From contig NW_026515669.1 in assembly GCF_025526975.1 (NCBI RefSeq), positions 1,612,001 through 1,676,000 on the forward strand: a DNA stretch of 64,000 nt, read 5' to 3'. How positions within the stretch are numbered: position 1 is the first letter of the stretch; the number at the start of each line of letters is the position of its first letter. This DNA comes from Fimicolochytrium jonesii (lineage: Eukaryota). Below the pieces are notes generated by a model. It searched no databases. It saw nothing but the letters and a program-made list of their open reading frames with translations, and had not been told where the DNA came from. Positions 29,578 to 59,564 of this stretch are shown here, one piece after another. A program made the translations under genes and the position numbers.

Positions 29578-29635
29578 GAATCGTCCCGATCGCTCGGAAC
29601 GCCCCGGAGAGGTGGTACAGTCACAGAAAGAAGAG
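29578..29635 (-). repeat. Fragment of the TRIM LTR
   Basis: Reverse complement matches about 60397-60455. Confidence 0.8.
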
Positions 29636-29666
29636 CCGCCCAGGTTCAAGCCGCCCATTCATAACA

Positions 29667-30521
29667 GCCGCCCAGGTTCAAGCCGATACGTACACCCGTC
29701 CCCAAGTCGCCATCCCTGCTCTGGAGCCAAGAATCAGCTCGCCCAAGAAGTTTGATGGTACCCGCAGCAAATTCCGTGGGTGGTTGAACAACATCCGGTT
29801 GATGTTTGCTCTCCAGCCCGACCGCTACCCCAGCGACATCATCAAGATCCAAACTATTGGCACCTACCTCACCGGCACTGCGCAAGCCTGGATGGCGCCC
29901 CTAGTCGAACGCCAAGATCACAGCCTTCAGGACTTTGATAGTTTTATCAGTCAGATGCAATCGGTCTTCGGAGACAGCGACAGGGTCCGCACCTCTGAAA
30001 ACAAGCTCCAGAACCTTCGCCAAACCCGTGCAGCAACCAAGTACGTTGCTGAGTTCCGCCAGCTACAATGCGATGTCTCCTGGAACGACCAGGCCCTGAT
30101 TGCTACCTTCCGCCGTGGCCTCAAAGAAGACGTCAAAGACCTGATGCTCACAATGCCCCCTGCGGCCACCATTGATGTGGTGATGGAGCAGGCTATCCAG
30201 TGCGATAACCGGCTGTTTGAGCGCCGCCTGGAGCGAAACAGAAGCCGCCAGACCTTCCCGGTTCCCCATACCTCGTTTACTACTACCACCACTGTCGACC
30301 ACAGCGAGCCTATGCAGATTGACGCCGCTCGTCCCTGCGGCCCTCTGAGCCCTCAGGAACGCCAACGCCGCATTTCCAACAACCTCTGCCTTTACTGCGG
30401 TGGCGCGGGGCACATTGCAAAAGTCTGCCCCGTCAAGAACAAGACCACCACCCGTGCCGCCAACGTCGACATCAAAGAACCCTCCACCGAACAGGGTTTT
30501 CCCAAAGTCCAGCCGCAGTAA
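29667..30521 (+). CDS. gag: gag of family B (5'-truncated), with CCHC zinc knuckle
   Basis: [37 protein letters not shown]. Confidence 0.88.
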   Translation, partial: AAQVQADTYTRPQVAIPALEPRISSPKKFDGTRSKFRGWLNNIRLMFALQPDRYPSDIIKIQTIGTYLTGTAQAWMAPLVERQDHSLQDFDSFISQMQSVFGDSDRVRTSENKLQNLRQTRAATKYVAEFRQLQCDVSWNDQALIATFRRGLKEDVKDLMLTMPPAATIDVVMEQAIQCDNRLFERRLERNRSRQTFPVPHTSFTTTTTVDHSEPMQIDAARPCGPLSPQERQRRISNNLCLYCGGAGHIAKVCPVKNKTTTRAANVDIKEPSTEQGFPKVQPQ

Positions 30522-31748
30522 AGCCCCAGCGACTGGACAACACACACCGCCCCGGGCCTCCTAACCTTGCAGCTCCTGCAACGGGAGAGGCCACCCCCCT
30601 GGTTCCCGACTCCGTTATAGCCGACACAACCCTCCTAGCCGCTGCCCATGTCGAAAACTCCGAAATTAACCCCCGCGCCATGCTTGCGCTGGGTCCTGTC
30701 AAACCCTTTAACTACCCCGTTACCATCATGGTATCATCCAGCCGCGCCCCGATACCTACCTCAGCCATGATCGACAACGGTGCCCTGTCCTGCTTCATCG
30801 ACAGAGACTTTGCCCGCAAACACCGCATCGCCCTAGTCCCGCATCAGCGTCCACTGACAATCAAACTCGTTGACGGTCAACCCAGCTCTGCTGGGCCAAT
30901 CACCCATCACACCCAACCAGTAGGCATGTGGGTCGACGACCACTTCAAAGAAATCGTCTTCCATGTCACCAAATCACCCCATGCTCCAATCCTCCTTGGT
31001 CTCCCCTGGCTCCGCCTCCACGACATTAACCTTGACTTCAAGAGCCTTTCGGTCGGTTTCCGTTGCGACTGTCAGTACCATGAATTCGCGAATTGGGACA
31101 ACTCTTCAGCACCCCCGAGCCCAGCACCCGCCAGAACCCCCGAGCCCTTGATCCGCATCCCCCAGGATGAAGTCCCCGTCGACAAAACATGGTCGATTCC
31201 AGTACCCAAGGTATCTGGCTCCAGCACCCCAGAACCGGCTCCCACGCCGCTCCGAGTCTCGTTCATCTCTGCCCCAGCCTTCCGGGTCGCAGCAAGGCAT
31301 GACCAGGTCTTTGTTGCCTACGCCAACCCTGCGAAACCCGATCTTCCGGCCTCGCCTAGCCCCAGTAACCCCCCGACACCCGAGAAAGACATCAAAGACT
31401 TCCTGCCCCCCGAGTATCAAGACTTCGCCGACGTTTTCGAAAAGAGAAATGCTGACACTCTCCCCAAGCACCGGCCCTACGACTGTCCAATCGATCTGGA
31501 AGAAGGCAAGCAGCCACCTTTCGGCCCGATCTACAGCCTCAGCGAACCAGAAATGAAGGCACTCTGCGAATACCTCGAAGAAAACCTCGCCAAAGCATTC
31601 ATCAAACCCACAAAGTCCCCTGCCGGTGTGCCAGTCTAATTCGTGAAGAAAAAGGACGGTTCTCTCCGCCTCCGCGGCGATTATCAAGGCCTGAACAGCA
31701 TCACGGTGAAGAATTGCTACCCCCTGCCCCTGATCAACGGCATCATGG
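30494..31748 (+). pseudogene. pol: pol of family B, 5' half (PR, RT start), interrupted by the endogenous virus
   Basis: ORF 30680-31639 with MIDNGA; premature [13 protein letters not shown] breaks at 31748 and resumes at 56893. Confidence 0.9.
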
Positions 31749-31792
31749 TGTCACAGTCCACCCATCTTATATAAGATGGGTGGACTGTGACA
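31749..31792. repeat. Perfect 44-bp terminal palindrome
   Basis: TGTCACAGTCCACCCATCTTAT|ATAAGATGGGTGGACTGTGACA. Confidence 0.97.
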
Positions 31793-31874
31793 GGTACCAT
31801 AGTCAGTATTGAGACTGGACTGACTATAAGTTCACTTTGATAGGAACCATAGTCCGTTACGGGTCTTGTTACCC

Positions 31875-32000
31875 TAATTGAAGACCGCATTAATTGAAGA
31901 CCACACTAATTGAAGACCGCATTAATTGAAGACCACACTAATTGAAGACCGCACTAATTGAAGAGCGCACTAATTGAAGACCGCATTAATTGAAGACCGC
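31875..32000. repeat. 16-bp tandem repeat TAATTGAAGACCRCAY x8 (x6 at 56673-56766)
   Basis: Direct count in both TIRs; the last unit is partial. Confidence 0.92.
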
Positions 32001-32700
32001 TCCACGCGTCTCCTGTGACTGCAAAAAGTTCAAGACCAATTTCCGACGCGGGTTTAACGCGTCTCCGATGCACAAGTCATTAAACTCTGCAAGTCAATCA
32101 CGTGACCGCCCATGTGACACTGCACGTGACATAATAGGCTCAACGAGTCACTTTCAGTCGCGCCTGTCGAACACACCGTCACTCCTTACGTCAGCCCTTT
32201 TCCACACAAGTCCGCCGTTGCCCATCCCTACGCAAGTGGATCCAACAAAGAACCAAGTGAGGTCCACCCAAATATCCTCTCACCTCTCCATACATCGAGT
32301 CAATAACGTCGCAAGTCGTAACTAACCCCTCCACAAGTTATCGAATAGGTGGAAAAGTGACTTTTCAAACCAATGATGAACAACCGGAAAAACTAACGCA
32401 TGTACCTCATCCCCATCACATCATCTTTACCCAGATTCATTCATTCTCTCATAGGGTTTCAAAAGTCACTTTTCCACTTACTCCATAAATTATCGTAACA
32501 AATAAGAAAAACCTTTATCAATCCCCTCCACTCATCGAAACAAGTGACTTTCCAAATCACAAAAGTCACTTGATACCCCCCAAAACTCACTTGACACAAC
32601 TCTTATCGATATCCTCAATGTTTATATAAACACCGATTCCGCCCCTTGTGCATCCCCCGTACATTCGCTACTTCTCTCATCAACACTTCATTCTCCTAAC

Positions 32701-33481: not shown

Positions 33482-33769
33482 TTGCCATGTTCAGACAGAC
33501 GAGCCCTGTGTCGGTTGCTGGAAAGCGTCCGTGGCAAATCAAACCAGATGGTCTATGTGAAGCGTGACGAGACGAACAGTGAACTTTTCCGAACGATATA
33601 TGAAATTTGTACAAATAGAAAGCCAAAATTCAAAAAAGCGTTTCTCTTTGGGAATGGTTACCTCGGCCTCTGTTGGAGTAAAGACAGAGGCAGTCGCATT
33701 ATCGTGGGCAGTGATATAAACCGGCAACACAGCATCCTTGAAGTGATTTTTGGAGAACCGCCGACCTAG
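33440..33769 (+). CDS. Viral hypothetical protein
   Basis: 109-aa ORF abutting the stop of the fibre gene. Confidence 0.4.
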   Translation: MVKIRTLEGITIIQLPCSDRRALCRLLESVRGKSNQMVYVKRDETNSELFRTIYEICTNRKPKFKKAFLFGNGYLGLCWSKDRGSRIIVGSDINRQHSILEVIFGEPPT

Positions 33770-36700
33770 TAGCACTGTGTCCAAAAATTGAGGTATGAAT
33801 TAGACAACGTTATAGATGTTGGTATGACAATTCGTGCGCTCAATTGAGTATTCGTCGAAGAGAACAGCAACGGCACTTGGAAACTGAACGGGTACCTAGT
33901 ATTATACGTATTTATATCACAGTAGTATGACACTCCTCTACTAGCCACTACAGTAGAAGATTGGTCCAATATCTGAACGGTAATCGTAACGCGTGAATTA
34001 TTCGAATTCATATATCCCATAAAGGAAACATGGGCTACCACTCCGGACATCCCGACTTTCCAATTTATGGGAGAAAAACCTCCTGTATACCCATTTCCAT
34101 TTGTTAACAACGCATCTACAACACCGTCTTTGATGCAAACTGCAGATTGAATGATTTGTGAAGCATAGATGTTCGTACTACAAGTCAAATCATTCTTTAC
34201 CAAAGCTGTTGTATTACATGTCATGGAATTTACCGTTGCTGAACCACTTGATGAAACGGTTCCCGTAGTCAACGCACCGGAAACATCTATAGTGTTTGCA
34301 GAAGCGGTGACAAGGGTTGCTTTTGGAACAGCCTGATTGAACTGAATCTGGCGGATTGCACATCCTCCACTTGTGGTTTGATTGGCATATGCCCATGCGA
34401 TGCCCCATACTACATAAGGCGTGGTGTTTGCAAAACTAAATGAGTTTCCATCAGTGGTCCAAGTAGAACCAGGTATATTCAACGTTGCAATGGTTACCAT
34501 AGCGGACTCGGTAGTTCCGGCAATCACGGAGAACGTAGTAGGCATCGCCACGGCGTCCATCAGGTAGGCGGTGAGTTTGATTGAACTCATAGCAATGGCC
34601 GACGGGAGTCTCAATAAAGAGTAATGAAGACTTTGTGTTGTTCCATCGAGTCCTAGGTTTGCTGTCGAAGTGCTCGCGGTTGCCCACCGCAGTCTGGAAG
34701 CAATACTTGCATTACTATAACAATCGAAAACATGTCCCGTATATCCATCTACACCGTTTCCGTTTGCATACGTGTATTCGGAAGAACCAATAACTGAATA
34801 CCCGGACCATGATTGACCTGTTGCTGGCGTCTGTGGATATGGAACGAGAGTTGTGACAGAATTTAAGGCAGAAGTTTTCAAGTCCCCGGTCACATTAAGA
34901 TTCGACCCCACATATAGAGATTTCGCTACAGATGCGCCTCCATTCACTACAAGAGCGCCCGATGTATTAGAAGTTGCATCAGAAGTGTTCAAGACCGATA
35001 CAGTACCACTGTTGTTCAGATTTCCCCCAACATATACGTTTTTCGCCACAGAGGCGCCTCCAGACACTTGAAGAGCGCCTGATCCAACTCCTGTGCAATC
35101 GGTTGTGGTAAAGACAGATGCAATACCAGTATTTGTAAAAACTTTGAACCAAGTGGTATTTTCGGCCGAATTCCACACAGAAAAATCTCCTACCACCCGT
35201 AAATCGTCCCATACCCGTACATAAGGGTTAGAACTTTGATTCGGGTCTATGGAGAGAGGACCTGCTGAACCAGATGCAGAAATTATTGCTTGATTTCCGG
35301 TGAAATTCATGTTTCCTGAAACTGACAAACTGCCGATAGAACCGGTGGGAATAACAACCTTCCCCGTTCCATCCACTGTAAGACCTTGTGGTGCATTCCA
35401 TAATCCCAAACCCAACGTGTTTGTCGCAAGACCTGCTCCAGCATAATTGAAGTACAATCTGGCCATATTATTTGTTGCTGCTCCTACTCCAATTTGAAGT
35501 GTTGAGAAACTCCCCGCTGCCAAATTAGGTGTTCCGAGATGCGAAGATACAATAGGGCCACTCGAAGAAATAGTGGAGTATATGGTACCGTTGACGTTCA
35601 AATCTTTACCAATATTGACATTCCCTGCAATACCCGCTCCACCTCTCACCTGAAATGCACCTGAAGTGGTCGAAGTAGAATCTATGGTGGAAAGAATTTG
35701 TACACTGGGGAGGTTAGAGTTGATTATGAAATTGGCATTAGACCCGGAATAGAGAAAAAAGTTCCCAGCATTTGGAGCGGTCGTATTGACTCCTGCGTAA
35801 CCGAATGCTCCCACCGTTGTTCCTGTGTTGTTAACAAAACCGATCGAAGAAAACCCAGATGCTGAAAGACTCTGAAGTTTCAAAACATCTGTTGATGTCG
35901 AGTTTACTTGCAGTGTATGACTCCCAGTGGCCGATGAACCAGCAAATAGAGATTTTCCCACACCTAGACCTCCAGCAACTGTTAGAGCGCCAGTTGTTGT
36001 AGAAGAGGAGTCCGTTGTTGTATTGATTAGAACATTTCCATTTGTCAATATATCAAGGTTTGATACGCCGGGTCCGTTAGCGAATCGAAGGTTTGTCGGT
36101 GAATTATTGTACTGTGCCCGAATTACCATATCGCCAATAGCCGAATTTGAGGAAAAGTACCCTGCTGCTGAAACGTTGCCCGTTATGCTGCTTCCAAATG
36201 TGGGTGTGGACACCGAACCGTTGTACCAAAAGATACTTTGATTTGACCCGACAAAACTCGCATCACTTCCTACCGTCAATTTCTTGGCGATACCAACACC
36301 TCCGGCGACCTGTAAAGCCCCTGTTGTTATACCATTCGAATCAGTTGTCGAATTGATATTTAATGCGTTTGTTGCCACATTCACCGTTAACGCAAGATTT
36401 GCGGCAGTATTGTTGTATAAGCCGAAATTATTAGTTCCAAGGCCACTAGTTTGGCCTATATGCCACAAAGTCCAACCTCCACCGTTTGAGTTTATAAGAC
36501 CTACAGAAGGTCCATTTCCGGCTGTAGATTCTTTTATGATTCCATATCCACCGACGTATAATGATTTAGCGATACCAACGCCGCCTGCAACTTGGAGAGA
36601 ACCAGCATTTATAGCGTTGGAGTCAAGAGTAGAAGTAACTACAGTCGATGCAGCGTTATTTATATTCAAAGTCTGTCCTGTTGTGGTATTCAGGTTCGCT

Positions 36701-39700
36701 GTTGTTCCTCCTAGGAATACGGTGCCGCCAACCACCACACTTTTCCCCACACCAACTCCTCCAACAACTTGGAGCGCACCTGATGTGGTCGAGGTAGAAT
36801 CAGTCGTTCCGGCAATTTGAACATTGGATAAGTTCGCATTTCCACCAACATTCAGAGATGATAGAGTTCCAACGATTGTAATTTGAGGCTGAGCAGGATT
36901 TACGCTAAAGGCGTTTCCAGTTCGTGTCAATCCTGTTCCAGCACTAAGAAGCGTATCAACATAAATCTTATTTGTAAGATGATTTGCTAAGGTCGGTGCT
37001 GTTGAGACGACAGCGTTTCCTGACACCGTGACATCTCCAGCAATATTTGCTGTTCCACCGACGCTCAATGATGATAGGGTCCCAAGAGATGTTATACCTG
37101 TTTGACTAGCATTAACGCTGAAAACGTTTCCTGTTTTTGTCAATCCCGTTCCAGCAGTTGAGACTAAACCATCTACATAGGATTTCAAGGCGACAGTTCC
37201 GTCAATGTTGGCATATGGAAGGACAGTTGTTCCAACATCGTTTGCTAAATCTATAGAATTCTTCAATGCAATCGAGCCTAAACCCAAAGCCGTCCTAGAT
37301 GCTGATGGAGGCGTACTGATATAATTCGTTCCATCTCCTACAAGGAAATTGTTGAGAGTGGCGGTGCTCGAAGAAATAGCAGTCAATTTTCCATTTAGCG
37401 GTTGCGCTCCCGTTTGCGTTGTAGAAATCAATCCATCCACATATGATTTTGTCACAGCATGCGAAGCCGTGGTTGGAGTAGGTACGGTTATTGACCCTGT
37501 AAATGTGCTAGAACCAGAAACGGTGAGACCCGTCAAAGTCCCAACACTTGTAATTTGTGTTTGGACAGGATTGACACTTAAAGTCTGACCAGTTTTAGTC
37601 AAACCGGTTCCAGCAAGCACAATGTTCGGGTCAATACTTCCAACAGGAAGAATACCGGTGACATCTGCGCTTGCAAGATTGATAACGGATTTAGCAGCCA
37701 AACTGCCAAGCGAAGGCTTGTTTGTCAGTAAAGCCGAAGTGTAATCTATACTACTCAGTGCTGCAAGTGAACCAAGCGAAGGCTTGTTTGTAAGTAAAGC
37801 CGAAGTGTAATCGATACTGCTAAGTGCTGCAAGTGAGCCAAGAGTTGGCTTTCCAGTAATGTACGTCGAAGCATAGTCGATGCTATTCAGCGCAGCGAGA
37901 CTGCCAAGGACAGGTTTATTCACCAACGCCGAACTTGTGTAATCTAATGTATCAAGCAAACTTAAATTCTTCAAGGACAAGTTCGCACGAACATCTGCAG
38001 GACTATATTGAATGAAGTTGCCGCCGCTTGCGATAAGCATGTACGTGTTTGTCGGTGCTATATTTGCGAAGTTTGTCAGACGAGCATTAAGGGGTTGATA
38101 CGTCGTGGCTGCATTTGCTACGGTGAGGTAGTTGTTCAAAGTAGGACTGCTGATGCTTCCCGCTGTTAAAGTATTTGTAACATTCAATGTACCAAGCGTT
38201 CCTACTGTTGTTATGGCTCCCGAGTTGAAGCTAATCGAATTACTCGTGTCTCTAGAGAAGACAGGTCCGATAAAGGTCAGCTTCTTCTCGTAGACAGAGA
38301 GGTCTGGAGTGCCGGTTAACCTTGTGTATGGAATGGTATCTGTCTTTGCAACTTTGCTGTCGATAGAGGTTTGCAGTAAGGCATTAGTGTCTCCTATAAC
38401 ATTCATGTATGCCGGTTGTATAATCTCGCTATCGTATTGCCGCAAAAGAGACAGCGATATCGCAGTCTGAGGAACCTCATTTTTGATTCCTTTGAACGAA
38501 CAGGGTGGAATGTCATCAAGCAGCAAACGTGTTACATCACACGATGTGTCATCAGTCTTGGGGAAAGTCGCTATAATCACTTGACTTCCGTTTGGGTCTG
38601 GCAATGGGTTGCCGTTGGAGTCTACTACATTGTTGCCATTCGCATCTTTCTGGTTTTTTCTCTCTCGCCCTGACACAGCGATGAATCCCCCTAAGATGCC
38701 GGCTGCTGCTGCCGGTCCTCCGAGCAGTCCTCCTACGGCACCGATAGCAGATGTGGCGAATGGAGCGCCTGCAGCGGGTCCGATGAGCCCCACCGCTCCT
38801 CCTAAGATTGAGGAAAGCGGTCCGGTCACAGATACAGCAGGGTTTGTCCCAGATGCAGTGAGGGGGTCACTCTCCCCAGATGGGTTCGAGTCCTCATTTT
38901 TCTCTTCAGGGTCATCGCTCTCTTTACGGTTTTTGTAGGGCTGTATGGAGCTGATATTGAACCCGGTTTCTTCCGAACCGACAACAAGAATGCCCGACCC
39001 GCCCGTAATCACTAACGGCTGTTTAGCGATGTTGAACTCCTTATCCCCTCCCGTCACAATGATAGGCAAAGCCGCAGTGATAACAGTCGGGGTTTCGGGT
39101 TCAGGCTGATAAGTGCAACTAATGGTAGACCCAGATATAGAGATGTTGTTCCCCGCCGTATAAGCTCCGGCGATGTTGTTTCCAGTTACGGAGACACCGT
39201 TGCTGCCCGTATAAGCCCCTTTAACAGAGTTGCCCGTGACCGTTACAGTTGAATCACCAGCCTGCAAATCTAGCTGCAAGTCGTTCTCTACTCGCTTCAC
39301 GCCGTTCGATGCGGTCAGCTGCTCCCCGAATGTATTGTTACCATCGAATGTAATGGCCCCGCTTACAGATGGAGCGAGTTTGACCTGGTTTTGATTTTCA
39401 ATCTTCAAACCGCCGTTGACTGGTTGAAACGTCAAACCTATCGCCAATTTGTCGTTCACTACTCGTATCCCTTTGTTATCCACAATTGCGGAAGGGTTGA
39501 CTCCAAGATTTTGTGAAGAGTCAATTGCTAAGCTCGCATCCGTTCTCACATCGATAGTACGTCTTCCGTTACTCACGCTAGAGATGTCTATACCTGAACC
39601 TGCTTGATAAAGCTGCTCCACATACGCAGTCGACGGTACTTGATTGTTATCAGGGTCGAAGTCAGTGTTCACATACATATGAGGGGCATGCAATTCATTC

Positions 39701-40767
39701 AGAGTCTCATTGTAATAAAATGAAGAATCTCCATTGAATCCGCTCAAAGCAGAGTAGTAAGGAATCTGCCCCATACCTTTGGAACGTATAGCAAGCTTGT
39801 TGCCAGACTGTTGGAAATCGTCTGAAGTTTTCAAGCGAATGACGGTCGTATCAATATCAGTGTCATCTCCTAGAAAATCTGCAATGCTATCGAAGCCTTC
39901 TTGGAGCACATCTTCGAGCAAGATACTTGAACCTTTATCATTGGAAATGGCTCCACGTCCCACGATTACAGTGTCAACATCAGTCTGTAAGGCCCCGCTA
40001 TCATCGAGTTTCAATCCCTTTCCGGTATCGAGGAGAATGTGACCGGTTGTATCGTCTTTCCTCAGAGGTCTGTCCACAACAAGTTTTTGATCGATCAAAC
40101 TCTCTACATTTTCGCTGGCCACCGAGAGTCCTTCGCTAGTAACTGTCAAAGTACTGTCATGCTGCAGCCCTAAGCCACCCACGTCACGCGTAACTGGAAA
40201 TTCAACATCTTCCCTTACCACACTCAGCTTATCACTCTTCACTGTAAGTGACGAGTCCGTGAGAAGTTTCAACCCATTAGAATCCCTTGCAAGAGGACTA
40301 TTGATATCCTCTTTTTCAGGGAAGACGACGCTAAGCAAACCATCATCGGTCTGTTTAAGGGAATCATCGTGGAAAAGCGTGATACCATCTTGTGACACGC
40401 CCAAAGGCAAATCCGTGATAACAGCCGCTGTCCTTGAAGCGGCATCATATGTCAGTGGGAACTCATAGTTGTTTTCCTTTGTTGCAAGCTTCCCGTTCTT
40501 CACTTTCAAGTCCGTTTCATCTATCTTCAAGTCAATCGTTGCGATTCCTTTGTCGGTCTTTACCTCAAGCGGCTCTGTTGCTTTCACATCATTAACAAGG
40601 AAATCTCCATTTTCATTCGCAACTCGATTGAACCTTGCTGAATCGAATCCGCTTATCGCAACACTGTCTCCATTCGCTCGAAGGCTGTTTGTCACGAGAG
40701 GGGAGACTAAGTTAGTTCTCTCTAAAGTCCTAATACCCGAACTAGTTCGGCTATTGAGATTACTCAT
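33766..40767 (-). CDS. Giant fibre/tail-fibre-like virion protein
   Basis: 2333 aa, G/S/T/N-rich; shaft-like PL..D..L.V repeats; xKSYVD motifs; AGTGLT(K/R)TG x3; TxD..S..GALQVxGG x7; 22-aa tandem repeats. Confidence 0.8.
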   Translation of the reverse strand: MSNLNSRTSSGIRTLERTNLVSPLVTNSLRANGDSVAISGFDSARFNRVANENGDFLVNDVKATEPLEVKTDKGIATIDLKIDETDLKVKNGKLATKENNYEFPLTYDAASRTAAVITDLPLGVSQDGITLFHDDSLKQTDDGLLSVVFPEKEDINSPLARDSNGLKLLTDSSLTVKSDKLSVVREDVEFPVTRDVGGLGLQHDSTLTVTSEGLSVASENVESLIDQKLVVDRPLRKDDTTGHILLDTGKGLKLDDSGALQTDVDTVIVGRGAISNDKGSSILLEDVLQEGFDSIADFLGDDTDIDTTVIRLKTSDDFQQSGNKLAIRSKGMGQIPYYSALSGFNGDSSFYYNETLNELHAPHMYVNTDFDPDNNQVPSTAYVEQLYQAGSGIDISSVSNGRRTIDVRTDASLAIDSSQNLGVNPSAIVDNKGIRVVNDKLAIGLTFQPVNGGLKIENQNQVKLAPSVSGAITFDGNNTFGEQLTASNGVKRVENDLQLDLQAGDSTVTVTGNSVKGAYTGSNGVSVTGNNIAGAYTAGNNISISGSTISCTYQPEPETPTVITAALPIIVTGGDKEFNIAKQPLVITGGSGILVVGSEETGFNISSIQPYKNRKESDDPEEKNEDSNPSGESDPLTASGTNPAVSVTGPLSSILGGAVGLIGPAAGAPFATSAIGAVGGLLGGPAAAAGILGGFIAVSGRERKNQKDANGNNVVDSNGNPLPDPNGSQVIIATFPKTDDTSCDVTRLLLDDIPPCSFKGIKNEVPQTAISLSLLRQYDSEIIQPAYMNVIGDTNALLQTSIDSKVAKTDTIPYTRLTGTPDLSVYEKKLTFIGPVFSRDTSNSISFNSGAITTVGTLGTLNVTNTLTAGSISSPTLNNYLTVANAATTYQPLNARLTNFANIAPTNTYMLIASGGNFIQYSPADVRANLSLKNLSLLDTLDYTSSALVNKPVLGSLAALNSIDYASTYITGKPTLGSLAALSSIDYTSALLTNKPSLGSLAALSSIDYTSALLTNKPSLGSLAAKSVINLASADVTGILPVGSIDPNIVLAGTGLTKTGQTLSVNPVQTQITSVGTLTGLTVSGSSTFTGSITVPTPTTASHAVTKSYVDGLISTTQTGAQPLNGKLTAISSSTATLNNFLVGDGTNYISTPPSASRTALGLGSIALKNSIDLANDVGTTVLPYANIDGTVALKSYVDGLVSTAGTGLTKTGNVFSVNASQTGITSLGTLSSLSVGGTANIAGDVTVSGNAVVSTAPTLANHLTNKIYVDTLLSAGTGLTRTGNAFSVNPAQPQITIVGTLSSLNVGGNANLSNVQIAGTTDSTSTTSGALQVVGGVGVGKSVVVGGTVFLGGTTANLNTTTGQTLNINNAASTVVTSTLDSNAINAGSLQVAGGVGIAKSLYVGGYGIIKESTAGNGPSVGLINSNGGGWTLWHIGQTSGLGTNNFGLYNNTAANLALTVNVATNALNINSTTDSNGITTGALQVAGGVGIAKKLTVGSDASFVGSNQSIFWYNGSVSTPTFGSSITGNVSAAGYFSSNSAIGDMVIRAQYNNSPTNLRFANGPGVSNLDILTNGNVLINTTTDSSSTTTGALTVAGGLGVGKSLFAGSSATGSHTLQVNSTSTDVLKLQSLSASGFSSIGFVNNTGTTVGAFGYAGVNTTAPNAGNFFLYSGSNANFIINSNLPSVQILSTIDSTSTTSGAFQVRGGAGIAGNVNIGKDLNVNGTIYSTISSSGPIVSSHLGTPNLAAGSFSTLQIGVGAATNNMARLYFNYAGAGLATNTLGLGLWNAPQGLTVDGTGKVVIPTGSIGSLSVSGNMNFTGNQAIISASGSAGPLSIDPNQSSNPYVRVWDDLRVVGDFSVWNSAENTTWFKVFTNTGIASVFTTTDCTGVGSGALQVSGGASVAKNVYVGGNLNNSGTVSVLNTSDATSNTSGALVVNGGASVAKSLYVGSNLNVTGDLKTSALNSVTTLVPYPQTPATGQSWSGYSVIGSSEYTYANGNGVDGYTGHVFDCYSNASIASRLRWATASTSTANLGLDGTTQSLHYSLLRLPSAIAMSSIKLTAYLMDAVAMPTTFSVIAGTTESAMVTIATLNIPGSTWTTDGNSFSFANTTPYVVWGIAWAYANQTTSGGCAIRQIQFNQAVPKATLVTASANTIDVSGALTTGTVSSSGSATVNSMTCNTTALVKNDLTCSTNIYASQIIQSAVCIKDGVVDALLTNGNGYTGGFSPINWKVGMSGVVAHVSFMGYMNSNNSRVTITVQILDQSSTVVASRGVSYYCDINTYNTRYPFSFQVPLLFSSTNTQLSARIVIPTSITLSNSYLNFWTQCY

Positions 40768-41127: not shown

Positions 41128-41141
41128 AAGAAGATAAATTC

Positions 41142-42620: not shown

Positions 42621-42815
42621 ACCCTCGTATTACATTCGATTCGATTGGGGTGCCCGTTATTTCGGGTTTTGATTGTGATAATGTAAAACTAGGAATCTGT
42701 ATATAGAGACTCCTAGTTTTGCATTATTGATATTTTTCCCGAATTTTTAGGTTGCGGCGATGTGATGAAGGTGAAGAACTGCCCGTCACTTTTCCTTACA
42801 ACCACAACTAACATT

Positions 42816-42994: not shown

Positions 42995-44218
42995 TTACAC
43001 CACATCGACAGTCGCTCCAATCAAGATGGTGCGCTGGGAGTAAACCGTCGTAATCAATGAGACGTTAGTGCTAGGAGCTGGCAAAGCGTGGTGAGTAATC
43101 AAATTGATGTTGCCGTTGCTTCCAACCAAGTTCAAGGCCGATTGAGCATCTTCATCAGCACTCTGCCACGAGTAGCGAATCATAAAGTTCTTGTCATAGA
43201 AGTTGTCTAGATCCAAATCCTCACTCGCGTAAGAAGAGTTGTCGTTCATAGACAAGTTCGCAATCATTACCGCATCTTCTACTTGGAAGTCCTCCGTGAG
43301 TGGCAAACGGTAAGATCCAATTTGGTACCTCCATGACTTGAGGTTTGCAGTATCATAGATGAGACTCTTGTCCCCGCTTGTGGTAGCGTAGTCGCTGTCA
43401 TCGCGGAACCGATGAGTCAAACCGACAACGCGTGCATTGGTCAAGGGGAGAATGAAATTATTCTGTGAAGCTCCGCTGCAGACGTTAGACAATTGGGTAA
43501 CACCAACAGTGTCAATTTCCAAATACTTGCCCGCTTGGATGCCTTGCCAGAGAGTTGATAAATACAGTGCGCTAGGCGTTACCATCTGAGCCACATAGCG
43601 CAAGTTCGAGACAACAAAGTACGCACCACTGGGAAGATTAGTGAAAGCCGCTTGTGGGTTGTTGAGCGTTAGGGTTAGTTCAACGGATTGATTGGGCAAA
43701 ACGCAAATTGGAATCGGCTGACCGTTCAATGGTCTCATCGAGCCGGCAAGCAAATGATGCTTGAAATTGAACGTTCCGGTGGAATTCTTGAAGGCATCTT
43801 TGTTGCCTGCGCCTTCGTTGTATTTGAGATACTTTCGTTTCTCGACTTCAACAGTTTGGTAAGAGTCTGCAACGAACTGCGGCATGTCCTCAATTTCATC
43901 TACCACTTTCCCGCCCATCTTAACATTCAATGTGCGGAAACAAGCCATGGCGCCGATTTGTGAAATCTCCGCAGTTGTAAAAGGCGAACCATCGGCGTTG
44001 CGGACTTCAATCTTTCCAGACAGGTAGGAGCGCTGAGGACGCAGGAAAGACGAGTTGCTATCAACAGTAATCTTGATGGCATTGCCGGGAGAGCGAGAGT
44101 CAAAATACTCCTTGATACTTCGGTAAATCGCGATGTTCTCTGACAGGGCGTCGCTATGCATTGAAAACTGGCGACTCGCATAGATCCAGTTCGAAGGCAC
44201 AACAGGATTCGTAGACAT
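42995..44218 (-). CDS. Major capsid protein (double jelly-roll, PLV type)
   Basis: 407 aa, beta-rich; SPGNAIKI..FLRPQRSYLSG..FRTLNVKMGGKVVDEI pattern typical of PLV MCPs; clustered with penton and ATPase. Confidence 0.82.
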   Translation of the reverse strand: MSTNPVVPSNWIYASRQFSMHSDALSENIAIYRSIKEYFDSRSPGNAIKITVDSNSSFLRPQRSYLSGKIEVRNADGSPFTTAEISQIGAMACFRTLNVKMGGKVVDEIEDMPQFVADSYQTVEVEKRKYLKYNEGAGNKDAFKNSTGTFNFKHHLLAGSMRPLNGQPIPICVLPNQSVELTLTLNNPQAAFTNLPSGAYFVVSNLRYVAQMVTPSALYLSTLWQGIQAGKYLEIDTVGVTQLSNVCSGASQNNFILPLTNARVVGLTHRFRDDSDYATTSGDKSLIYDTANLKSWRYQIGSYRLPLTEDFQVEDAVMIANLSMNDNSSYASEDLDLDNFYDKNFMIRYSWQSADEDAQSALNLVGSNGNINLITHHALPAPSTNVSLITTVYSQRTILIGATVDVV

Positions 44219-44788: not shown

Positions 44789-45538
44789 TTAAACGACCAA
44801 ATCCATCGGGTCATCATAGATACCGAGTACTATTACAACCGGCGCACTTGGCTTGATGACCTGGAGGGAACCCGAGTCAACAATCTGGAAATCCACTTGA
44901 TTCAAGGTGGTGTCTTCCGAGCGGTGGAAATTGTCGCTCGGGTTGATCCAACTGAGGACATCATTGAATGAATCGGGCGAGATTGCAGCGAGAACGTTCA
45001 GGTCGGAGTTAATCCCAGACGCGTAAACGATGGCACCGTTAGTTTGCAGAGTCCGTGACGTAATGAGAATGGGTTGGGACGCGCTGAGATTCAACGGGTT
45101 AGGAAATGTGATGCTGTTCGCGTATCCCGTTTCATTCGCCTTATCAATGCCCAGTTGAAGGAAAGCGGTGGAGCCCCGACTCCCTCCTACGATTTTGAAA
45201 GTCTTGCCTCCACTTGAAGAGACCCGCAAACGCCGAGTCGTCTGGTCGTAATCAACCGTATAATTCTGAGTACCGGCTGCTGTAAGAGCGCCTGCGAGAG
45301 CGCTGATGATACTTGTCGAGTCATAGGTTCCCGAAGGCAATGTTGCTTTCTTCAGGTTAGAGTCACCGTTCTCTGCAAACATCACCACATTGTTTGTGGA
45401 GCTTGTGGCATCCCAATTCTGAAGAAGCGAAACCGAAACGATACGCCATGCGTAACAGGGTATGGTCTTTTGAAGGCGGAAGGTCGGCTCGTTTAGAGAC
45501 GGAAGCGTTCCGGTATTTAGAATCAGCTCACGATACAT
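44789..45538 (-). CDS. Minor capsid protein (penton, single jelly-roll)
   Basis: 249 aa; TLPSGTYD..I..AL..AL motif, YDQTTRRL, C-terminal VDFQIVD..VVIVL. Confidence 0.78.
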   Translation of the reverse strand: MYRELILNTGTLPSLNEPTFRLQKTIPCYAWRIVSVSLLQNWDATSSTNNVVMFAENGDSNLKKATLPSGTYDSTSIISALAGALTAAGTQNYTVDYDQTTRRLRVSSSGGKTFKIVGGSRGSTAFLQLGIDKANETGYANSITFPNPLNLSASQPILITSRTLQTNGAIVYASGINSDLNVLAAISPDSFNDVLSWINPSDNFHRSEDTTLNQVDFQIVDSGSLQVIKPSAPVVIVLGIYDDPMDLVV

Positions 45539-45583: not shown

Positions 45584-46321
45584 ATGGAAGTGAAGAGGAC
45601 AAAGATTCCAAAGGAGTTTGAAATTTCCATCAAAGACAAGACGCCCGAGGGGTACCCCAGGAAATTCTTTACATTGACACTTGTTGGCTCTTCGAGAGCG
45701 GGCAAGACCACCTGCATCATAAATTTGATTGAGAATATCGCACGGTGTTACTCGAATGTAATCATATTCTCTCCAAGTGCTGACGCTCCGGAGTGGACAG
45801 CCTTGAGGAAGTTCGATAACGTCTTTATGTCTAATCTGGTGTCTAATAACATTCTACACAAGCTCTTTGAAAAGCAGAAGAAGCTTTATCAACAGGACAA
45901 GACAAAGAATCACATGTGTTTAATACTGGATGATTTCGGTTTGCTTGCCAAGGAAAAGGGCCTCGATATAGGCAAAGAACCAAGAGAAGCGGAAATCGTA
46001 TCGAGCGGTTGCAGGCAGATGCTTGATTTATTGTATAGCCGAGCTCGACATAACGGCATGTCGGTTCTCGCCAGCTTTCATGACTGTAAGCAGATGAGCC
46101 CTTTACAAAGAGTGAACTCCACTCACTGGATTTTGTATCGCCTCAATGAAGCGCAATACAGTAAGATAGCCCCTGAGATTCGGTGTCACCTAAGTGAGAA
46201 AGAATTTATAGGCAAGGCGGAAGAGTATACTAAGCAGCCTTTCCACGCTTTGTATGTCGATCTAAAAGCCCCGAAGAACGAAGATGTATTCAAAGAGCTC
46301 AAACCGGCGGCAGAGGTCTAG
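45584..46321 (+). CDS. A32/FtsK-HerA family DNA packaging ATPase
   Basis: Walker A GSSRAGKT, Walker B LILDD, RARH arginine motif. Confidence 0.9.
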   Translation: MEVKRTKIPKEFEISIKDKTPEGYPRKFFTLTLVGSSRAGKTTCIINLIENIARCYSNVIIFSPSADAPEWTALRKFDNVFMSNLVSNNILHKLFEKQKKLYQQDKTKNHMCLILDDFGLLAKEKGLDIGKEPREAEIVSSGCRQMLDLLYSRARHNGMSVLASFHDCKQMSPLQRVNSTHWILYRLNEAQYSKIAPEIRCHLSEKEFIGKAEEYTKQPFHALYVDLKAPKNEDVFKELKPAAEV

Positions 46322-47095: not shown

Positions 47096-48385
47096 ATGGC
47101 TCCTCCTTTAACTAGAGCACAGGAAGAGAAGCTAAAGACTCTTTTTTATTCGGAAAAAAACTTTTTCGGTAGAGACCGACTCTATTTTCTTTTGCAGCAA
47201 GACCCGCGAAATGATATATCACGACGACAGGTGATGAACTGGCTTGCTAAACAACCCATAGCACAAAAGTTTCGAAGACCTGTGAGAGCCACAGGTGTGC
47301 GAGCAATCGTATCAACGGCTCTCGGTTCATTTCAATGTGATACGATGGACATGTCTGCAGACAGCTACAGAGGATTCGGTGCAATCTTCTCCATGATTGA
47401 CACGTTTTCCAGACGTTTGTATGCACGAGCAATCACAGGAAAGACTGCCGCAGAATGTACGCGCGCCTTGAAGGAAATTTTAGATGAGAACCCACACATG
47501 GCGTTCCACCGCGTAGTCTCAGATAACGGTGGAGAATTTCAGAATGTATTCGATGAGTACCTGCAGGAACTTGAGGTACCGCATAACGTCACGCGTCCCC
47601 ATCAGCCTTGGTCAAATGGAATAATCGAGCGGAGTAATGCCTCGTTAAGAAAACAACTGTCGATTTATATGGAAACCACAGGCAACAAAGATTGGCCGGC
47701 TGCTTTGCCTGATTTAGTTAAACGGTTGAACTCGACCTTTAATGCAACAACGAAACATTCGCCCAATGAGTTAGAAGAGACGTCTCCGGACAGCGAAGAA
47801 CACACTAAGGCTGGATCAAACATAATGAAGCGAGCTGGAAAATCTGTTAATGTCCGTGGTGCAACGACTCTACAAGTTGGGGATACGGTTAGGAAAGTGT
47901 TTCAATATTCGGGCACAAATATTCAAAAACCATCAAGGACGGGATACTTTGCGCCAGAAAAGTTCGAGATTGTAGCAGTTGTCCCATCCCCTTATGCAAA
48001 CCAGCTTCCATCATACAAGCTGAAGAACAGCGCGGGTGTTGTGGAAAAGGGTTTGTTCGCTCGAAGTCAACTCTTGTTGGTGCCCAGTGAAGGTATCCGG
48101 ATCGACCCGCCTCGACCTGTTGAGAATGTAGGCGAGCCACCCGTGGAGGAACCGGTAGAGGAACCGGTTGCGCCAAGACGTTCGGGAAGACTTAACCCCG
48201 AGAGGGAGTATGAAGTCGAATACATTCGAGACAAGAGAACGCGCAGAGTAGGTAGACGAACATTCATTGAATATCTAGTAAAATACAAAGACTATCCTAT
48301 CGAACAAAGTACATGGGAAAAGGTCTCTAATATCAATGCGCCTAATCTTATTCGGGAGTTTGAGAGTCAGAGGAATCGACGCTAA
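47096..48385 (+). CDS. Retroviral-type (rve) DDE integrase with C-terminal chromodomain
   Basis: FQCDTMD, SDNGGEF, NGIIERSN; EYEVEYI..EYLVKYKDY..STWE. Confidence 0.92.
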   Translation: MAPPLTRAQEEKLKTLFYSEKNFFGRDRLYFLLQQDPRNDISRRQVMNWLAKQPIAQKFRRPVRATGVRAIVSTALGSFQCDTMDMSADSYRGFGAIFSMIDTFSRRLYARAITGKTAAECTRALKEILDENPHMAFHRVVSDNGGEFQNVFDEYLQELEVPHNVTRPHQPWSNGIIERSNASLRKQLSIYMETTGNKDWPAALPDLVKRLNSTFNATTKHSPNELEETSPDSEEHTKAGSNIMKRAGKSVNVRGATTLQVGDTVRKVFQYSGTNIQKPSRTGYFAPEKFEIVAVVPSPYANQLPSYKLKNSAGVVEKGLFARSQLLLVPSEGIRIDPPRPVENVGEPPVEEPVEEPVAPRRSGRLNPEREYEVEYIRDKRTRRVGRRTFIEYLVKYKDYPIEQSTWEKVSNINAPNLIREFESQRNRR

Positions 48386-49457
48386 GTTTACGCTTTTTGT
48401 TACTGTTGTAACGATTATACAAGGAACTCTCTTCCTCGTTGTGATGATTGTTAAGAGCTAACAGCCTGCTAATAGGGTCTTGCAGCCCGTTCCTACGCAG
48501 GTGAGTAATCTGCGTTTTCCTGCAACTTCGAACACCGTGCTTCTGTCCACACGCAGCTTCAAATGACTTTTGTATATGGGTATTGAAATTGTTTGGTGTG
48601 AATGGATTTCCCTTTGAATCGATAAACACATGAGCGCCTTCCGGGCGAAACCGCTTGATGAATCGAATGAGAACGTCAGAGACAAACGCAGGGTCGATGA
48701 CATCCTGAAACGACTCCGGTGCGTCTACAAAATGTTGCAGAAATGACTGAACCTCGTCCTGTCTGTGTTTCTTGTTTACAGATTGTCTGTCAAACTTCCT
48801 ATCATTCCATAGAATGGTAGGCCTTCCGGTAGCAGCAAAGATAAAGATGTTATCCTTTTTCCAATCGATTCCTTCGCGGTCGAATATCTTGAGATTTCCA
48901 AAGTTGCCTCGGACGTTGTAGAAACAAGCGACAAACAATCCGATGATGCCGTCTTGCAAAAGTTCAATCTGATGCTTGCTGGGGTGAGGAAGGTCGAATA
49001 TGTAGAACAGGCTATCGCAGTATTTGCGCATCTCGTCAACAACTCCCTTCCAATTAGGAATCAATTCATCGTCGGATAATGTCTCTCCATTAGAACGGGC
49101 TGTGTTGTAAGGCTGTTTCAATCGACGTTGCTCATCAGCGAGTTTCTTCCTGACCTCCTCCCATTGGTCGAATGAAATACCGAGGGGTTCGTGACCGCAA
49201 TTTCTGAAGATACGATGAACTTTCCCAATGAAATCCGCCATACTAGAGTCAGCAATTTTCCCGTCCTTTAAACGTGCAGATTGCTTTGACTGAGTGATGA
49301 TAGCTTTAATGTCGTGCAGGTTGGATAGGGATTCCAAGGAATCGAAGATGCCGCGCTTCTGGAATTCGGTCACATCTTTCAAATCGCCTGTATAAGATTT
49401 GGTATCCTTCGTAAGGAACTCGCCGAGGTTGGCCGTTTTCAGATAGAATTCAGCCAT
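48348..49457 (-). CDS. Tyrosine recombinase-family protein (possible telomere resolvase)
   Basis: VRGNFGNL (R), NDRKF (K), VFIDSKGNP, GVRSCRK (R), NHHN..SLYNRY (H..Y) in YR order. Confidence 0.65.
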   Translation of the reverse strand: MAEFYLKTANLGEFLTKDTKSYTGDLKDVTEFQKRGIFDSLESLSNLHDIKAIITQSKQSARLKDGKIADSSMADFIGKVHRIFRNCGHEPLGISFDQWEEVRKKLADEQRRLKQPYNTARSNGETLSDDELIPNWKGVVDEMRKYCDSLFYIFDLPHPSKHQIELLQDGIIGLFVACFYNVRGNFGNLKIFDREGIDWKKDNIFIFAATGRPTILWNDRKFDRQSVNKKHRQDEVQSFLQHFVDAPESFQDVIDPAFVSDVLIRFIKRFRPEGAHVFIDSKGNPFTPNNFNTHIQKSFEAACGQKHGVRSCRKTQITHLRRNGLQDPISRLLALNNHHNEEESSLYNRYNSNKKRKLSVDSSDSQTPE

Positions 49458-52500: not shown

Positions 52501-52580
52501 AAATCCTCACTCTCTTCGGGGTTGATGTGCAGGTATCGCTGGTTGATTTTGCTCTCCTGTATCTGTAGCGGTGAATCCAT
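49554..52580 (-). CDS. Multidomain DNA methyltransferase-like protein: two phage-Dam-like domains plus a degenerate C5-cytosine MTase
   Basis: Duplicated NEYN.P..IDLDVCSNP..CNPPAR; C-terminal SAGIGG, SELN, YGDI, RKRWYW, ERAMGFPDNYT. Confidence 0.78.
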   Translation of the reverse strand: MDSPLQIQESKINQRYLHINPEESEDFLTTCIAVNTIVEHRLYKNEAPALEEYVKKFHNVTRRTFYNISNCGDVLLRLKKEGVPTDELPCNAALCLALLKLHKKLRLPLKTIWDRNVEFYEGRQNVVACRLSAPFKEPEVDSNAIDLTSEASPTGASLPEVDEDEFPMDEDEEELIDQARLASGKPVTDIGKWRHSLSARRRLGENEYNTPPIICKLLDDFVKTFHDSIDLDVCSNPSSELVCKHYFGVQPHGTFIDAFDLPRWCIPADEDEAALHPREWTGKASVIVCNPPARPLNEEQASRMENEFPTPKFLDRLVQMLDDEECDHLLLLVPMDLRRSWCPPLVERCDQLLIFNRFNNHLSKAALERSPQAKPVVDDPNPRCLIYLSREKHMDIERSFCEIFGTLPKTYLTKDVRKKVMSEEAESEKSESEEEESSVERSKWIHCKRSRTKLGENEYNAAPEICDKIDQFVKCFHDSIDLDVCSNPCATINCKYYYGVQPDGSFVDAFGLERWCIPADDDEAEREPSEWTGRPSVILCNPPARALSDEQSKHMKKSENPTPKFIARVMEMIDKGECDHAIFLLPMDGRRNWSFPLIRRCDQYAQFHRSNNHLSRAALERNPHKKAISDDPNPRVIIYVAREANLHIQKAFCDVFEGNTILPKDVREHTHNLRKRARQSYVESGEEEEEDEDTPPPPKKSPVKKQDRIHKAITDFAAENEVTCIEGEDFLDKAKNDLESGEVIRAVGIVSECTDELYSVAMLCHLRKGKLTVAYLDSESGFPLAKKFVAAFQTHGFIPGVNSFACTPSLLDVEKKSPLRYFSASAGIGGADLAMNRVFENAHCVGYSELNPRAVKIYEIHHIRQTNYGDIEKLECNVLPVFEFLIGAGNVNGFDKILRACHPRYFLFANTEPTATISEALGVKPIMLDDADFNGLSRKRWYWANFRIQPAPFHKRQAPNDKRLTCIDKERAMGFPDNYTHGISSAARLSLLDNAMSVETICHILKHI

Positions 52581-56059: not shown

Positions 56060-56892
56060 GATATCGATAAGAGTTGTGTCAAGTGAGTTTTGGGGGGTAT
56101 CAAGTGACTTTTGTGATTTGGAAAGTCACTTGTTTCGATGAGTGGAGGGGATTGATAAAGGTTTTTCTTATTTGTTACGATAATTTATGGAGTAAGTGGA
56201 AAAGTGACTTTTGAAACCCTATGAGAGAATGAATGAATCTGGGTAAAGATGATGTGATGGGGATGAGGTACATGCGTTAGTTTTTCCGGTTGTTCATCAT
56301 TGGTTTGAAAAGTCACTTTTCCACCTATTCGATAACTTGTGGAGGGGTTAGTTACGACTTGCGACGTTATTGACTCGATGTATGGAGAGGTGAGAGGATA
56401 TTTGGGTGGACCTCACTTGGTTCTTTGTTGGATCCACTTGCGTAGGGATGGGCAACGGCGGACTTGTGTGGAAAAGGGCTGACGTAAGGAGTGACGGTGT
56501 GTTCGACAGGCGCGACTGAAAGTGACTCGTTGAGCCTATTATGTCACGTGCAGTGTCACATGGGCGGTCACGTGATTGACTTGCAGAGTTTAATGACTTG
56601 TGCATCGGAGACGCGTTAAACCCGCGTCGGAAATTGGTCTTGAACTTTTTGCAGTCACAGGAGACGCGTGGAGCGGTCTTCAATTAATGCGGTCTTCAAT
56701 TAGTGCGCTCTTCAATTAGTGCGGTCTTCAATTAGTGTGGTCTTCAATTAATGCGGTCTTCAATTAGGGTAACAAGACCCGTAACGGACTATGGTTCCTA
56801 TCAAAGTGAACTTATAGTCAGTCCAGTCTCAATACTGACTATGGTACCTGTCACAGTCCACCCATCTTATATAAGATGGGTGGACTGTGACA
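56060..56892 (-). repeat. Right terminal inverted repeat (833 bp) ending in the same 44-bp palindrome (56849-56892)
   Basis: Reverse complement of the left TIR. Confidence 0.95.
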
Positions 56893-59552: not shown

Positions 59553-59564
59553 AGAGAGGGGTGA

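What the first reader, a model, noticed from the sequence alone, without database searches (positions are those of the whole stretch)
31749..31792. Perfect 44-bp palindromes at both tips suggest a hairpin-telomere virus integrated by hairpin opening
Seen: both ends are the same perfect palindrome, from TG to CA and directly against the 5-bp TSD. Inference: a linear genome closed at TTAT|ATAA and nicked after CA, 22 nt from the tip, would leave exactly this scar after integrase joining and fill-in. Cutting a replicated head-to-head junction would do the same. Established: protelomerases (N15 TelN, Borrelia ResT) turn such palindromes into hairpin ends, whereas classical Polintons are protein-primed with 6-bp TSDs. 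This is the best candidate for an undescribed system here.
Basis: partly seen in the sequence, partly recalled or inferred. Interest (0 to 1): 0.93.

Follow-up and report, generated by a model that had tools for sequence, protein, structure and literature searches.

The report
Fungal virus with palindromic hairpin ends
A complete 25-kb Polinton-like DNA virus lies inserted in a jumping gene of what is likely a soil chytrid fungus, and both of its tips are the same perfect 44-base palindrome, which likely folds into a hairpin used to copy and insert the genome; this kind of end was reported in 2026 for related viruses of a protist, and its mechanism is still untested.

Summary
Observation confirmed. 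A 25,144-bp element (31749-56892) carries the same perfect 44-bp TG..CA palindrome at both tips, against a 5-bp CATGG duplication; two sister Ty3 copies hold the empty site. It is an apparently intact Polinton-like virus: double-jelly-roll capsid, A32 ATPase, RVE integrase with complete DD35E, D5-type primase-helicase, no pPolB. Its named capsid relatives are all chytrid. It also encodes a Pfam-invisible tyrosine recombinase with intact R-K-R-H-Y, which folds like XerH/Cre (Z 14.8/12.9) rather than protelomerase TelA/TelK (Z 7.8/6.9).

The end type is not undescribed: a 2026 preprint reports TSD-adjacent terminal palindromes in Halocafeteria virophages and PLVs, linked to non-pPolB replicons and RVE integrases, with a hairpin-priming model. 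This scan also noted 44-bp palindromic PLV ends in chytrid DNA twice before (unchecked).

Best reading: a linear genome with hairpin-forming ends, integrated by RVE at the outer CA. What remains new is the fungal host, the RVE plus YR pair in one PLV, and a testable integrate/excise cycle. No free-form reads or related DNA loci were available.

The parts
31744..31748 (+). left target-site duplication CATGG
   Evidence: a single copy in two sister Ty3 empty sites
31749..31792 (.). left terminal perfect 44-bp palindrome, TG..CA, centre 31770/31771
31749..32613 (+). left terminal inverted repeat (865 bp)
31874..32000 (+). 16-bp tandem array in left TIR (7.9 copies; 5.9 on the right); candidate origin iterons (inference)
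33766..40767 (-). 2333-aa repeat-rich ORF, candidate fibre/spike protein (inference from size and composition)
   Evidence: no Pfam hit
42995..44218 (-). double-jelly-roll major capsid protein (407 aa)
   Evidence: AF2 model; Foldseek E 2e-15 to iridovirus and 8.5e-15 to PBCV-1 capsids; 14 homologs, the 9 named ones from chytrids
44789..45538 (-). likely minor capsid (penton) protein, 249 aa (inferred from position and size only; not folded)
   Evidence: no Pfam hit
45584..46321 (+). A32-like packaging ATPase
   Evidence: Pfam Pox_A32 E 1.3e-6
47096..48385 (+). RVE (retroviral-type) integrase with C-terminal chromodomain; D82, D143, E178 intact
48348..49457 (-). tyrosine recombinase (369 aa) with R183, K221, R313, H339, Y347; Xer/Cre-like fold; overlaps the integrase 3' end by 38 bp
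49554..52580 (-). multi-domain DNA methyltransferase (1008 aa)
53497..56022 (+). D5/SF3 primase-helicase (841 aa); N-terminal part read as PolA-like TVpol from recalled motifs only, not confirmed by any library
   Evidence: searches gave no informative hit for the N-terminus
56060..56892 (-). right terminal inverted repeat (833 bp)
56849..56892 (.). right terminal perfect 44-bp palindrome, identical to the left
56893..56897 (+). right target-site duplication CATGG
30103..31748 (+). host Ty3/gypsy retrotransposon, part upstream of the insertion (protease, start of RT)
56893..60107 (+). host Ty3/gypsy retrotransposon, part downstream of the insertion (rest of RT, integrase-chromodomain)

Best explanation
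The two 44-bp palindromes are the tips of an integrated 25-kb Polinton-like virus with no detectable protein-primed polymerase; its free genome is likely linear with ends that fold into 22-bp hairpins to prime end copying, and its RVE integrase likely inserted it by joining the CA-3' at the outer edge of each palindrome to target strands cut 5 bp apart. Shown: palindromes, TSD, TIRs, gene set, intact catalytic residues. Inferred: (1) the hairpins replace a terminal protein in end replication, with the primase-helicase working near the 16-bp arrays; (2) the integrase sees each 22-bp stem as the donor end, either by nicking a closed hairpin at CA|GG (then host fill-in unfolds it into the full palindrome) or by taking an already opened blunt end; these two routes are about equally likely and leave the same scar; (3) the tyrosine recombinase is not the enzyme that made this insertion, and probably acts at the palindromes during excision or resolution of head-to-head junctions.
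For: Palindromes exactly at both tips, abutting a verified TSD. Near-identical TIRs and intact ORFs point to a recent insertion, so the ends should reflect the donor. No pPolB among 16 ORFs scanned, a D5-type primase-helicase instead. TG..CA ends plus a 5-bp TSD fit an RVE enzyme (established retroviral/Ty3 biochemistry, recalled), and DD35E is intact. [quoted passage not shown] A 22-bp stem is about the length of donor DNA that a retroviral intasome holds (recalled, not checked).
Against: No free form was observed: only an integrated copy is in hand. The scar is identical for three donor forms. Circular-mapping PLVs are common in viromes (PMC7805220 passages), and YR-encoding PLVs have been proposed to circularise (PMC4642659 passages). 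A spacer-free palindrome with 6-8 bp symmetric core also fits a recombinase or resolvase site, which rolling-hairpin priming does not require. Nicking of a hairpin donor with the whole genome attached to the non-transferred strand is not something I found shown for an RVE integrase.
Confidence: 0.5

Rival explanations
1. The palindrome is the Cre/Xer-like site of the viral tyrosine recombinase. A perfect palindrome is at once a direct and an inverted repeat, so recombination between the two tips would excise a circle with one palindrome at the TIR-TIR junction and leave a solo 44-bp palindrome between the TSDs. RVE would re-integrate the circle by nicking both strands after CA (44-nt stagger, cruciform arms), and fill-in would duplicate the palindrome.
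For: The YR folds like XerH (Z 14.8), Cre (12.9) and lambda Int (12.5) over both domains, with catalytic residues intact. 44 bp accommodates two binding arms plus a 6-8 bp core. The scar is reproduced in silico. Circular PLVs are reported (PMC7805220). A link between inverted repeats, YR and primase-helicase has been proposed for entomopoxvirus-associated PLVs (PMC11296320 passages).
Against: Halocafeteria PLV subtype 4 has palindromes and an RVE sequence, while the preprint says no Halocafeteria PLV encodes both RVE and Yrec. A divergent YR could have been missed there, since ours scores only E 0.13 in Pfam. No solo palindrome lies in this window, but only 64 kb could be searched. A circle with 865-bp perfect arms would be unstable (general knowledge).
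Confidence: 0.2
2. The tyrosine recombinase works as a non-orthologous telomere resolvase, as in N15/Borrelia. It cuts the palindrome centre with a short stagger and reseals hairpins, resolving replicated dimers and excising the provirus directly as a closed-ended linear genome.
For: A spacer-free palindrome is what protelomerases require, and they cut 6 bp apart (PMC3558466 passages); the core here is TATATA. The HxxR histidine position (310) is mostly S/Q (13 and 9 of 40), and none of the 8 residue types listed there is H. A single mutation shifts TelA towards Cre-like recombination, and combined mutations convert it fully, so the two activities are close (PMC12270096 abstract). The Atlas lists a ResT-TelK_cat cluster at 0.94. 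A brown-algal giant virus has a telRL-like site with fold-back reads (PMC13236599 passages).
Against: 0 of 40 family members match a telomere-resolvase Pfam, against 7 of 40 for Phage_integrase. TelA Z 7.8 (rmsd 7.3) and TelK Z 6.9 (rmsd 7.1) lie well below XerH Z 14.8 (rmsd 4.2). Foldseek TMq is 0.35-0.37 to TelA against 0.44-0.53 to Cre. The Atlas ranks Phage_integrase (0.96, 162 shared features) above ResT-TelK (0.94, 138). Excision this way leaves a hairpin-capped host break.
Confidence: 0.15
3. The palindromes are by-products of repair or fold-back at single-strand breaks during integration, not functional viral ends (the preprint's own alternative).
For: Named as an alternative in 10.64898/2026.07.28.741278.
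Against: Both ends carry exactly the same 44 bp, end in TG..CA and abut a clean TSD; independent accidents would not match. The feature recurs in whole subtypes in Halocafeteria.
Confidence: 0.07
4. The virus was inserted in trans by the host Ty3 integrase, which also works on TG..CA ends, rather than by its own RVE.
For: The element sits in a Ty3 array. Candidate Ty3 LTR ends in the window begin TGTTAC or TGTAAC, one base from the viral TGTCAC (LTR boundaries not verified).
Against: The virus has its own intact RVE, only 23.6% identical to the Ty3 integrase. This would not explain the palindrome.
Confidence: 0.05
5. Assembly or long-read fold-back artefact.
For: Fold-back chimeras create palindromes. 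No reads could be laid on the junction.
Against: Short identical palindromes at both ends, nested in a clean TSD whose empty site is verified in two sister copies.
Confidence: 0.02

Closest known systems
Palindrome-tipped endogenous virophages (subtypes 1, 2, 5, 6) and PLV subtype 4 of Halocafeteria seosinensis (bioRxiv 10.64898/2026.07.28.741278)
   Same: Terminal palindromes in the TIRs next to the TSD (52 nt in virophage subtype 5), non-pPolB replication genes, RVE integrase, proposed hairpin priming
   Different: Likely fungal (chytrid) host; 44 nt; a PLV that carries both RVE and YR, which the preprint reports only for virophages. In the sections I read, the preprint does not propose hairpin nicking at integration or YR action at the palindromes; it suggests the YR integrates into a giant virus
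Polinton-like viruses of chytrid fungi (Spizellomyces punctatus PLV, PMC7805220; chytrid PLV ATPases, bioRxiv 10.64898/2026.06.19.733378)
   Same: MCP-mCP-A32 module integrated in a chytrid genome; PMC7805220 reports 5-7 bp TSDs for three fungal/oomycete-set elements
   Different: 'hairpin' occurs 0 times in both main texts; the ends were not described in the passages seen. Relationship to the S. punctatus element not tested
Protelomerase systems: phage N15 TelN / phiKO2 TelK, Agrobacterium TelA, Borrelia ResT, phaeovirus EVEc telRL site
   Same: Perfect palindrome convertible into hairpin ends; tyrosine chemistry available
   Different: The enzyme here is Xer/Cre-like, not ResT/TelK family. 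The palindromes lie at the integration ends; in EVEc the telRL-like site is internal and a YR handles att-site excision
Classical Polintons/Mavericks
   Same: TIRs, RVE integrase, DJR capsid, A32 ATPase
   Different: No pPolB and no detected protease; 5-bp TSD with TG..CA ends instead of the 6-bp TSD recalled for Polintons
OLV11-like tyrosine recombinases of PLVs/virophages (PMC4642659)
   Same: YR in a PLV; structural neighbours include Aureococcus anophagefferens virus and Qinghai Lake virophage proteins
   Different: Here an RVE with matching TG..CA and TSD accounts for integration, so the YR is free for another role. Exact OLV11 orthology not tested

Membership tests
Polinton-like virus | Double-jelly-roll major capsid protein | tested here: met
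Polinton-like virus | A32-like packaging ATPase | tested here: met
   Pfam Pox_A32 above cutoff
Polinton-like virus | Single-jelly-roll minor capsid protein | not tested
Polinton-like virus | TIR-bounded genome of PLV size (10-45 kb used as a criterion in PMC7805220) | tested here: met
   25,144 bp, TIRs 865/833 bp
Classical Polinton/Maverick | Protein-primed PolB | tested here: not met
   no PolB hit among 16 element ORFs in Pfam or PHROGs; a D5-type primase-helicase is present instead
Classical Polinton/Maverick | RVE integrase | tested here: met
Halocafeteria-type palindrome-tipped PLV/virophage | Terminal palindrome within TIR adjacent to TSD | tested here: met
Halocafeteria-type palindrome-tipped PLV/virophage | Non-pPolB replication gene plus RVE integrase | tested here: met
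Halocafeteria-type palindrome-tipped PLV/virophage | RVE belongs to the same integrase clade as the palindrome-associated ones | not testable with these tools
   the preprint's sequences, figures and supplements were not available
Tyrosine recombinase (Xer/Cre/lambda Int) | CB + catalytic domain fold with R-K-(H)-R-H/W-Y | tested here: met
   R183 39/40, K221 37/40, R313 37/40, H339 36/40, Y347 35/40; VIA Z 14.8, rmsd 4.2, 286 aligned to XerH; HxxR His not conserved
Protelomerase (ResT/TelK/TelA/TelN) | Sequence match to the telomere-resolvase family | tested here: not met
   0 of 40 members at E<=0.1 in Pfam; no protelomerase among 20 PDB hits of the A4 profile
Protelomerase (ResT/TelK/TelA/TelN) | Fold closer to TelA/TelK than to recombinases | tested here: not met
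   TelA Z 7.8 (rmsd 7.3, 260 aligned), TelK Z 6.9 (rmsd 7.1, 266) against XerH 14.8 and Cre 12.9
Protelomerase (ResT/TelK/TelA/TelN) | Perfect palindromic substrate | tested here: met
Protelomerase (ResT/TelK/TelA/TelN) | Hairpin-forming activity; covalently closed free genome | not testable with these tools
   needs biochemistry or reads of the free form

The most novel reading that the evidence does not exclude
A two-enzyme integrate/excise cycle for a hairpin-ended eukaryotic virus. The RVE integrase treats each 22-bp hairpin tip as the donor end, nicks at CA|GG and joins it to the host. Fill-in turns each tip into a replicated-telomere-like 44-bp palindrome, and the co-encoded Xer/Cre-like recombinase later acts on exactly those palindromes to release the virus, as a closed-ended linear genome or as a one-junction circle. 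This would explain how RVE-integrated PLVs and virophages get out again, and why some keep both RVE and YR.
Probability: 0.3. Interest if true: 0.85.

Novelty: new variant of a known kind. Interest (0 to 1): 0.52.

Why it matters
The replication strategy of most PLVs is unknown (abstract of 10.64898/2026.07.28.741278), and I found no account of how RVE-integrated viruses without pPolB copy their ends or excise. This element is a complete, apparently intact example with both ends and the target site defined to the base, likely in a soil chytrid, a group with cultured members (recalled). It extends the palindrome-tipped end type from a stramenopile protist to a likely fungal host. It turns the question into simple tests: two small enzymes and a 44-bp substrate. 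If the novel case holds, it would be a retroviral-type integrase acting on hairpin ends, paired with a recombinase that reverses the insertion.

Tried and rejected
No whole genome is held for this window, so other insertions and solo footprints could not be sought beyond the 64 kb. No sequencing run was listed for 40800-50700 ('none was listed', not evidence), so no reads were laid. Exact-match scans found nothing: the 44-mer in metagenome contigs, and the 22-bp half in viral contigs and genome contigs. The search for related loci gave no confirmed locus for MCP, YR (23, 89), integrase (48) or ATPase (49), so the ends of relatives could not be compared. Cluster-member look-up could not be made. 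Single-sequence PDB, PHROGs and phage searches with the YR were uninformative; the profile and fold searches resolved it. The TVpol reading of the primase N-terminus found no support or contradiction. The review PMC11426020 is not held. Complex prediction was not used, because the open question is protein-DNA. Rejected: protelomerase family membership, classical Polinton membership, artefact. Correction: my first empty-site join was off by one base and did not show the in-frame RT; the correct join was made.

Full report
Observation. Positions 31749-31792 read as a perfect 44-bp palindrome with no spacer, centred between 31770 and 31771, and the identical 44-mer lies at 56849-56892. These are the only palindromes in the window with arms above 9 bp; 20 of 20 mononucleotide shuffles gave longest arms of 7-10 bp. 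As single-stranded DNA it folds at -23.5 kcal/mol, z = -11, with 0 of 200 shuffles as stable. Both copies run TG..CA and abut CATGG (31744-31748, 56893-56897). The rebuilt empty site aligns to two other copies of the same Ty3 retrotransposon in the window, each with a single CATGG, so the 5-bp duplication is real. The RT reading frame continues across it...INGIMD on the left (frame 0) and MDRLRGARR on the right. The palindromes cap TIRs of 865 and 833 bp that differ only by two 16-bp tandem units. The element is 25,144 bp with 46% GC, against 54-57% in the flanks.

What the element is. It encodes a 407-aa protein modelled at pLDDT 73.8 that matches double-jelly-roll capsids (iridovirus E 2e-15, PBCV-1 E 8.5e-15). 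It also encodes an A32 ATPase, an RVE integrase with chromodomain, a DNA methyltransferase and a D5-type primase-helicase. No pPolB hit was found among 16 ORFs scanned. The integrase triad D82, D143, E178 is intact. The MCP has 14 relatives at 48-81% identity; all 9 that carry a name come from chytrid genomes (Geranomyces, Gaertneriomyces, Phlyctochytrium arcticum, Powellomyces). The host is therefore likely a chytrid (placement of these genera in Spizellomycetales is recalled). PLVs in chytrid genomes are known: PMC7805220 and bioRxiv 10.64898/2026.06.19.733378 (passages seen).

The candidate end-processing enzyme. The 369-aa ORF 48348-49457 has no Pfam hit at E 0.01 and no PHROGs hit at E 0.1; Phage_integrase appears only at E 0.13. 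The Atlas placed it among Preplasmiviricota clusters, and a profile search found 45 representatives, of which 39 were aligned with the query (A4; 6 short or atypical hits left out). Conservation was R183 39/40, K221 37/40, R313 37/40, H339 36/40 and Y347 35/40; the HxxR histidine position is mostly S or Q. Seven of 40 members match Phage_integrase and 0 of 40 a telomere-resolvase family. The AF2 model (pLDDT 90.2) aligns best to XerH (Z 14.8, rmsd 4.2, 286 residues), Cre (12.9) and lambda Int (12.5), and less well to TelA (7.8, rmsd 7.3) and TelK (6.9). Foldseek against PDB gave no match at E<=0.001, with TMq 0.44-0.53 to Cre and 0.35-0.37 to TelA. Viral neighbours include Tetraselmis virus 1, Aureococcus virus and a Qinghai Lake virophage protein. 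It is thus an intact tyrosine recombinase and not a protelomerase by family. A weaker Atlas hit to a ResT-TelK cluster (0.94) and the ease with which TelA is converted to a Cre-like recombinase (PMC12270096, abstract and passages) keep a resolvase role open.

Mechanism. TG..CA ends with a 5-bp TSD point to the RVE, not the YR, as the enzyme of this insertion (recalled biochemistry). I checked in silico that three donors give the observed sequence: a covalently closed hairpin linear nicked at CA|GG 22 nt from each tip, an open duplex ending in both palindromes, and a monomer circle with one palindrome at the TIR-TIR junction nicked on both strands. This check is true by construction. With no pPolB, a hairpin role in end replication is the simplest reason for the palindromes. 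I put a linear genome with hairpin-forming ends at 0.5, Cre-like excision to a one-palindrome circle at 0.2, and YR as a non-orthologous telomere resolvase at 0.15. Against a required YR role: Halocafeteria PLV subtype 4 has palindromes and an RVE sequence, while the preprint reports RVE plus Yrec only in virophages. A YR as divergent as this one could have been missed there.

[quoted passage not shown] They are 52 nt in subtype 5, are associated with non-pPolB replicons and particular RVE integrases, and come with a hairpin-priming model and an accidental-annealing alternative. A telRL-like site with fold-back reads and a true protelomerase is described for an Ectocarpus giant-virus EVE (PMC13236599, passages). 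PMC11296320 (passages) links PLV inverted repeats, YR and primase-helicase and mentions dimer resolution for poxvirus hairpin ends. PMC4642659 (passages) assumes PLV YRs integrate circular donors. PMC3558466 (passages) gives protelomerase substrate rules. PMC13533422 (passages) shows that zoosporic fungi host giant viruses, possible helpers. Ten literature searches turned up no paper on palindromic PLV ends in fungi, on hairpin nicking by an RVE integrase, or on YR excision at such palindromes; most subscription journals are not in the library. Two earlier notes of this scan describe 44-bp palindromic ends of chytrid PLVs in retrotransposons, one of them in a Copia element. I could not check them, and one may be this same element.

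Limits.

Verdict. The feature is real and striking but no longer undescribed. It is a complete, likely fungal example of the palindrome-tipped, non-pPolB PLV/virophage end type, with an RVE plus YR combination that the preprint did not find in its PLVs. Novelty: new variant of a known kind. Interest 0.52. The boldest reading not excluded is an RVE-in/YR-out cycle through the palindromes (probability 0.3, interest 0.85).

Noticed in passing
window 40086-40099, 46449-46462, 47046-47059: An exact 14-bp palindrome TTTGATCGATCAAA occurs three times inside the virus. There are 6 matches at <=2 mismatches in the window against 0.42 expected. One copy lies 37 bp upstream of the integrase start. Possible promoter/operator or methyltransferase-related site.
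   Followed up: partly
window 32335-32371 / 32455-32491 and mirror in right TIR: A 37-bp internal inverted repeat (86%) and four AAGTGACTTT motifs in the TIR, with none in the 23-kb interior; candidate protein-binding sites.
   Followed up: partly
window 31798-31828: A second small hairpin (9-bp stem, 11-nt loop) just inside the terminal palindrome.
   Followed up: no
window 48348-48385: Integrase and tyrosine recombinase genes are convergent and overlap by 38 bp at their 3' ends.
   Followed up: no
window 49554-52580: 1008-aa methyltransferase with two similar internal modules (each with an NPP motif) followed by a C5-methyltransferase-like domain.
   Followed up: no
window 21-4751: 1576-aa ORF combining an apurinic-type endonuclease domain with RT, RNase H and an integrase zinc-binding domain: an unusual mix of non-LTR and LTR retroelement domains.
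   Followed up: no
window 7360-9914: Tet-like 2OG-Fe(II) oxygenase gene (E 8e-52) beside an unannotated 502-aa ORF, possibly a Tet-carrying transposon.
   Followed up: no
window 15751-24991, 28379-30108: Head-to-tail Ty3 copies with a 4.6-kb period and further nested fragments around the insertion. Candidate LTR ends start TGTTAC or TGTAAC, one base from the viral TGTCAC.
   Followed up: partly
window 13780-13802: A 23-bp imperfect hairpin with the same outer 7 bp as the viral tip, next to a repeat-rich region at 14000-14870; probably unrelated.
   Followed up: partly
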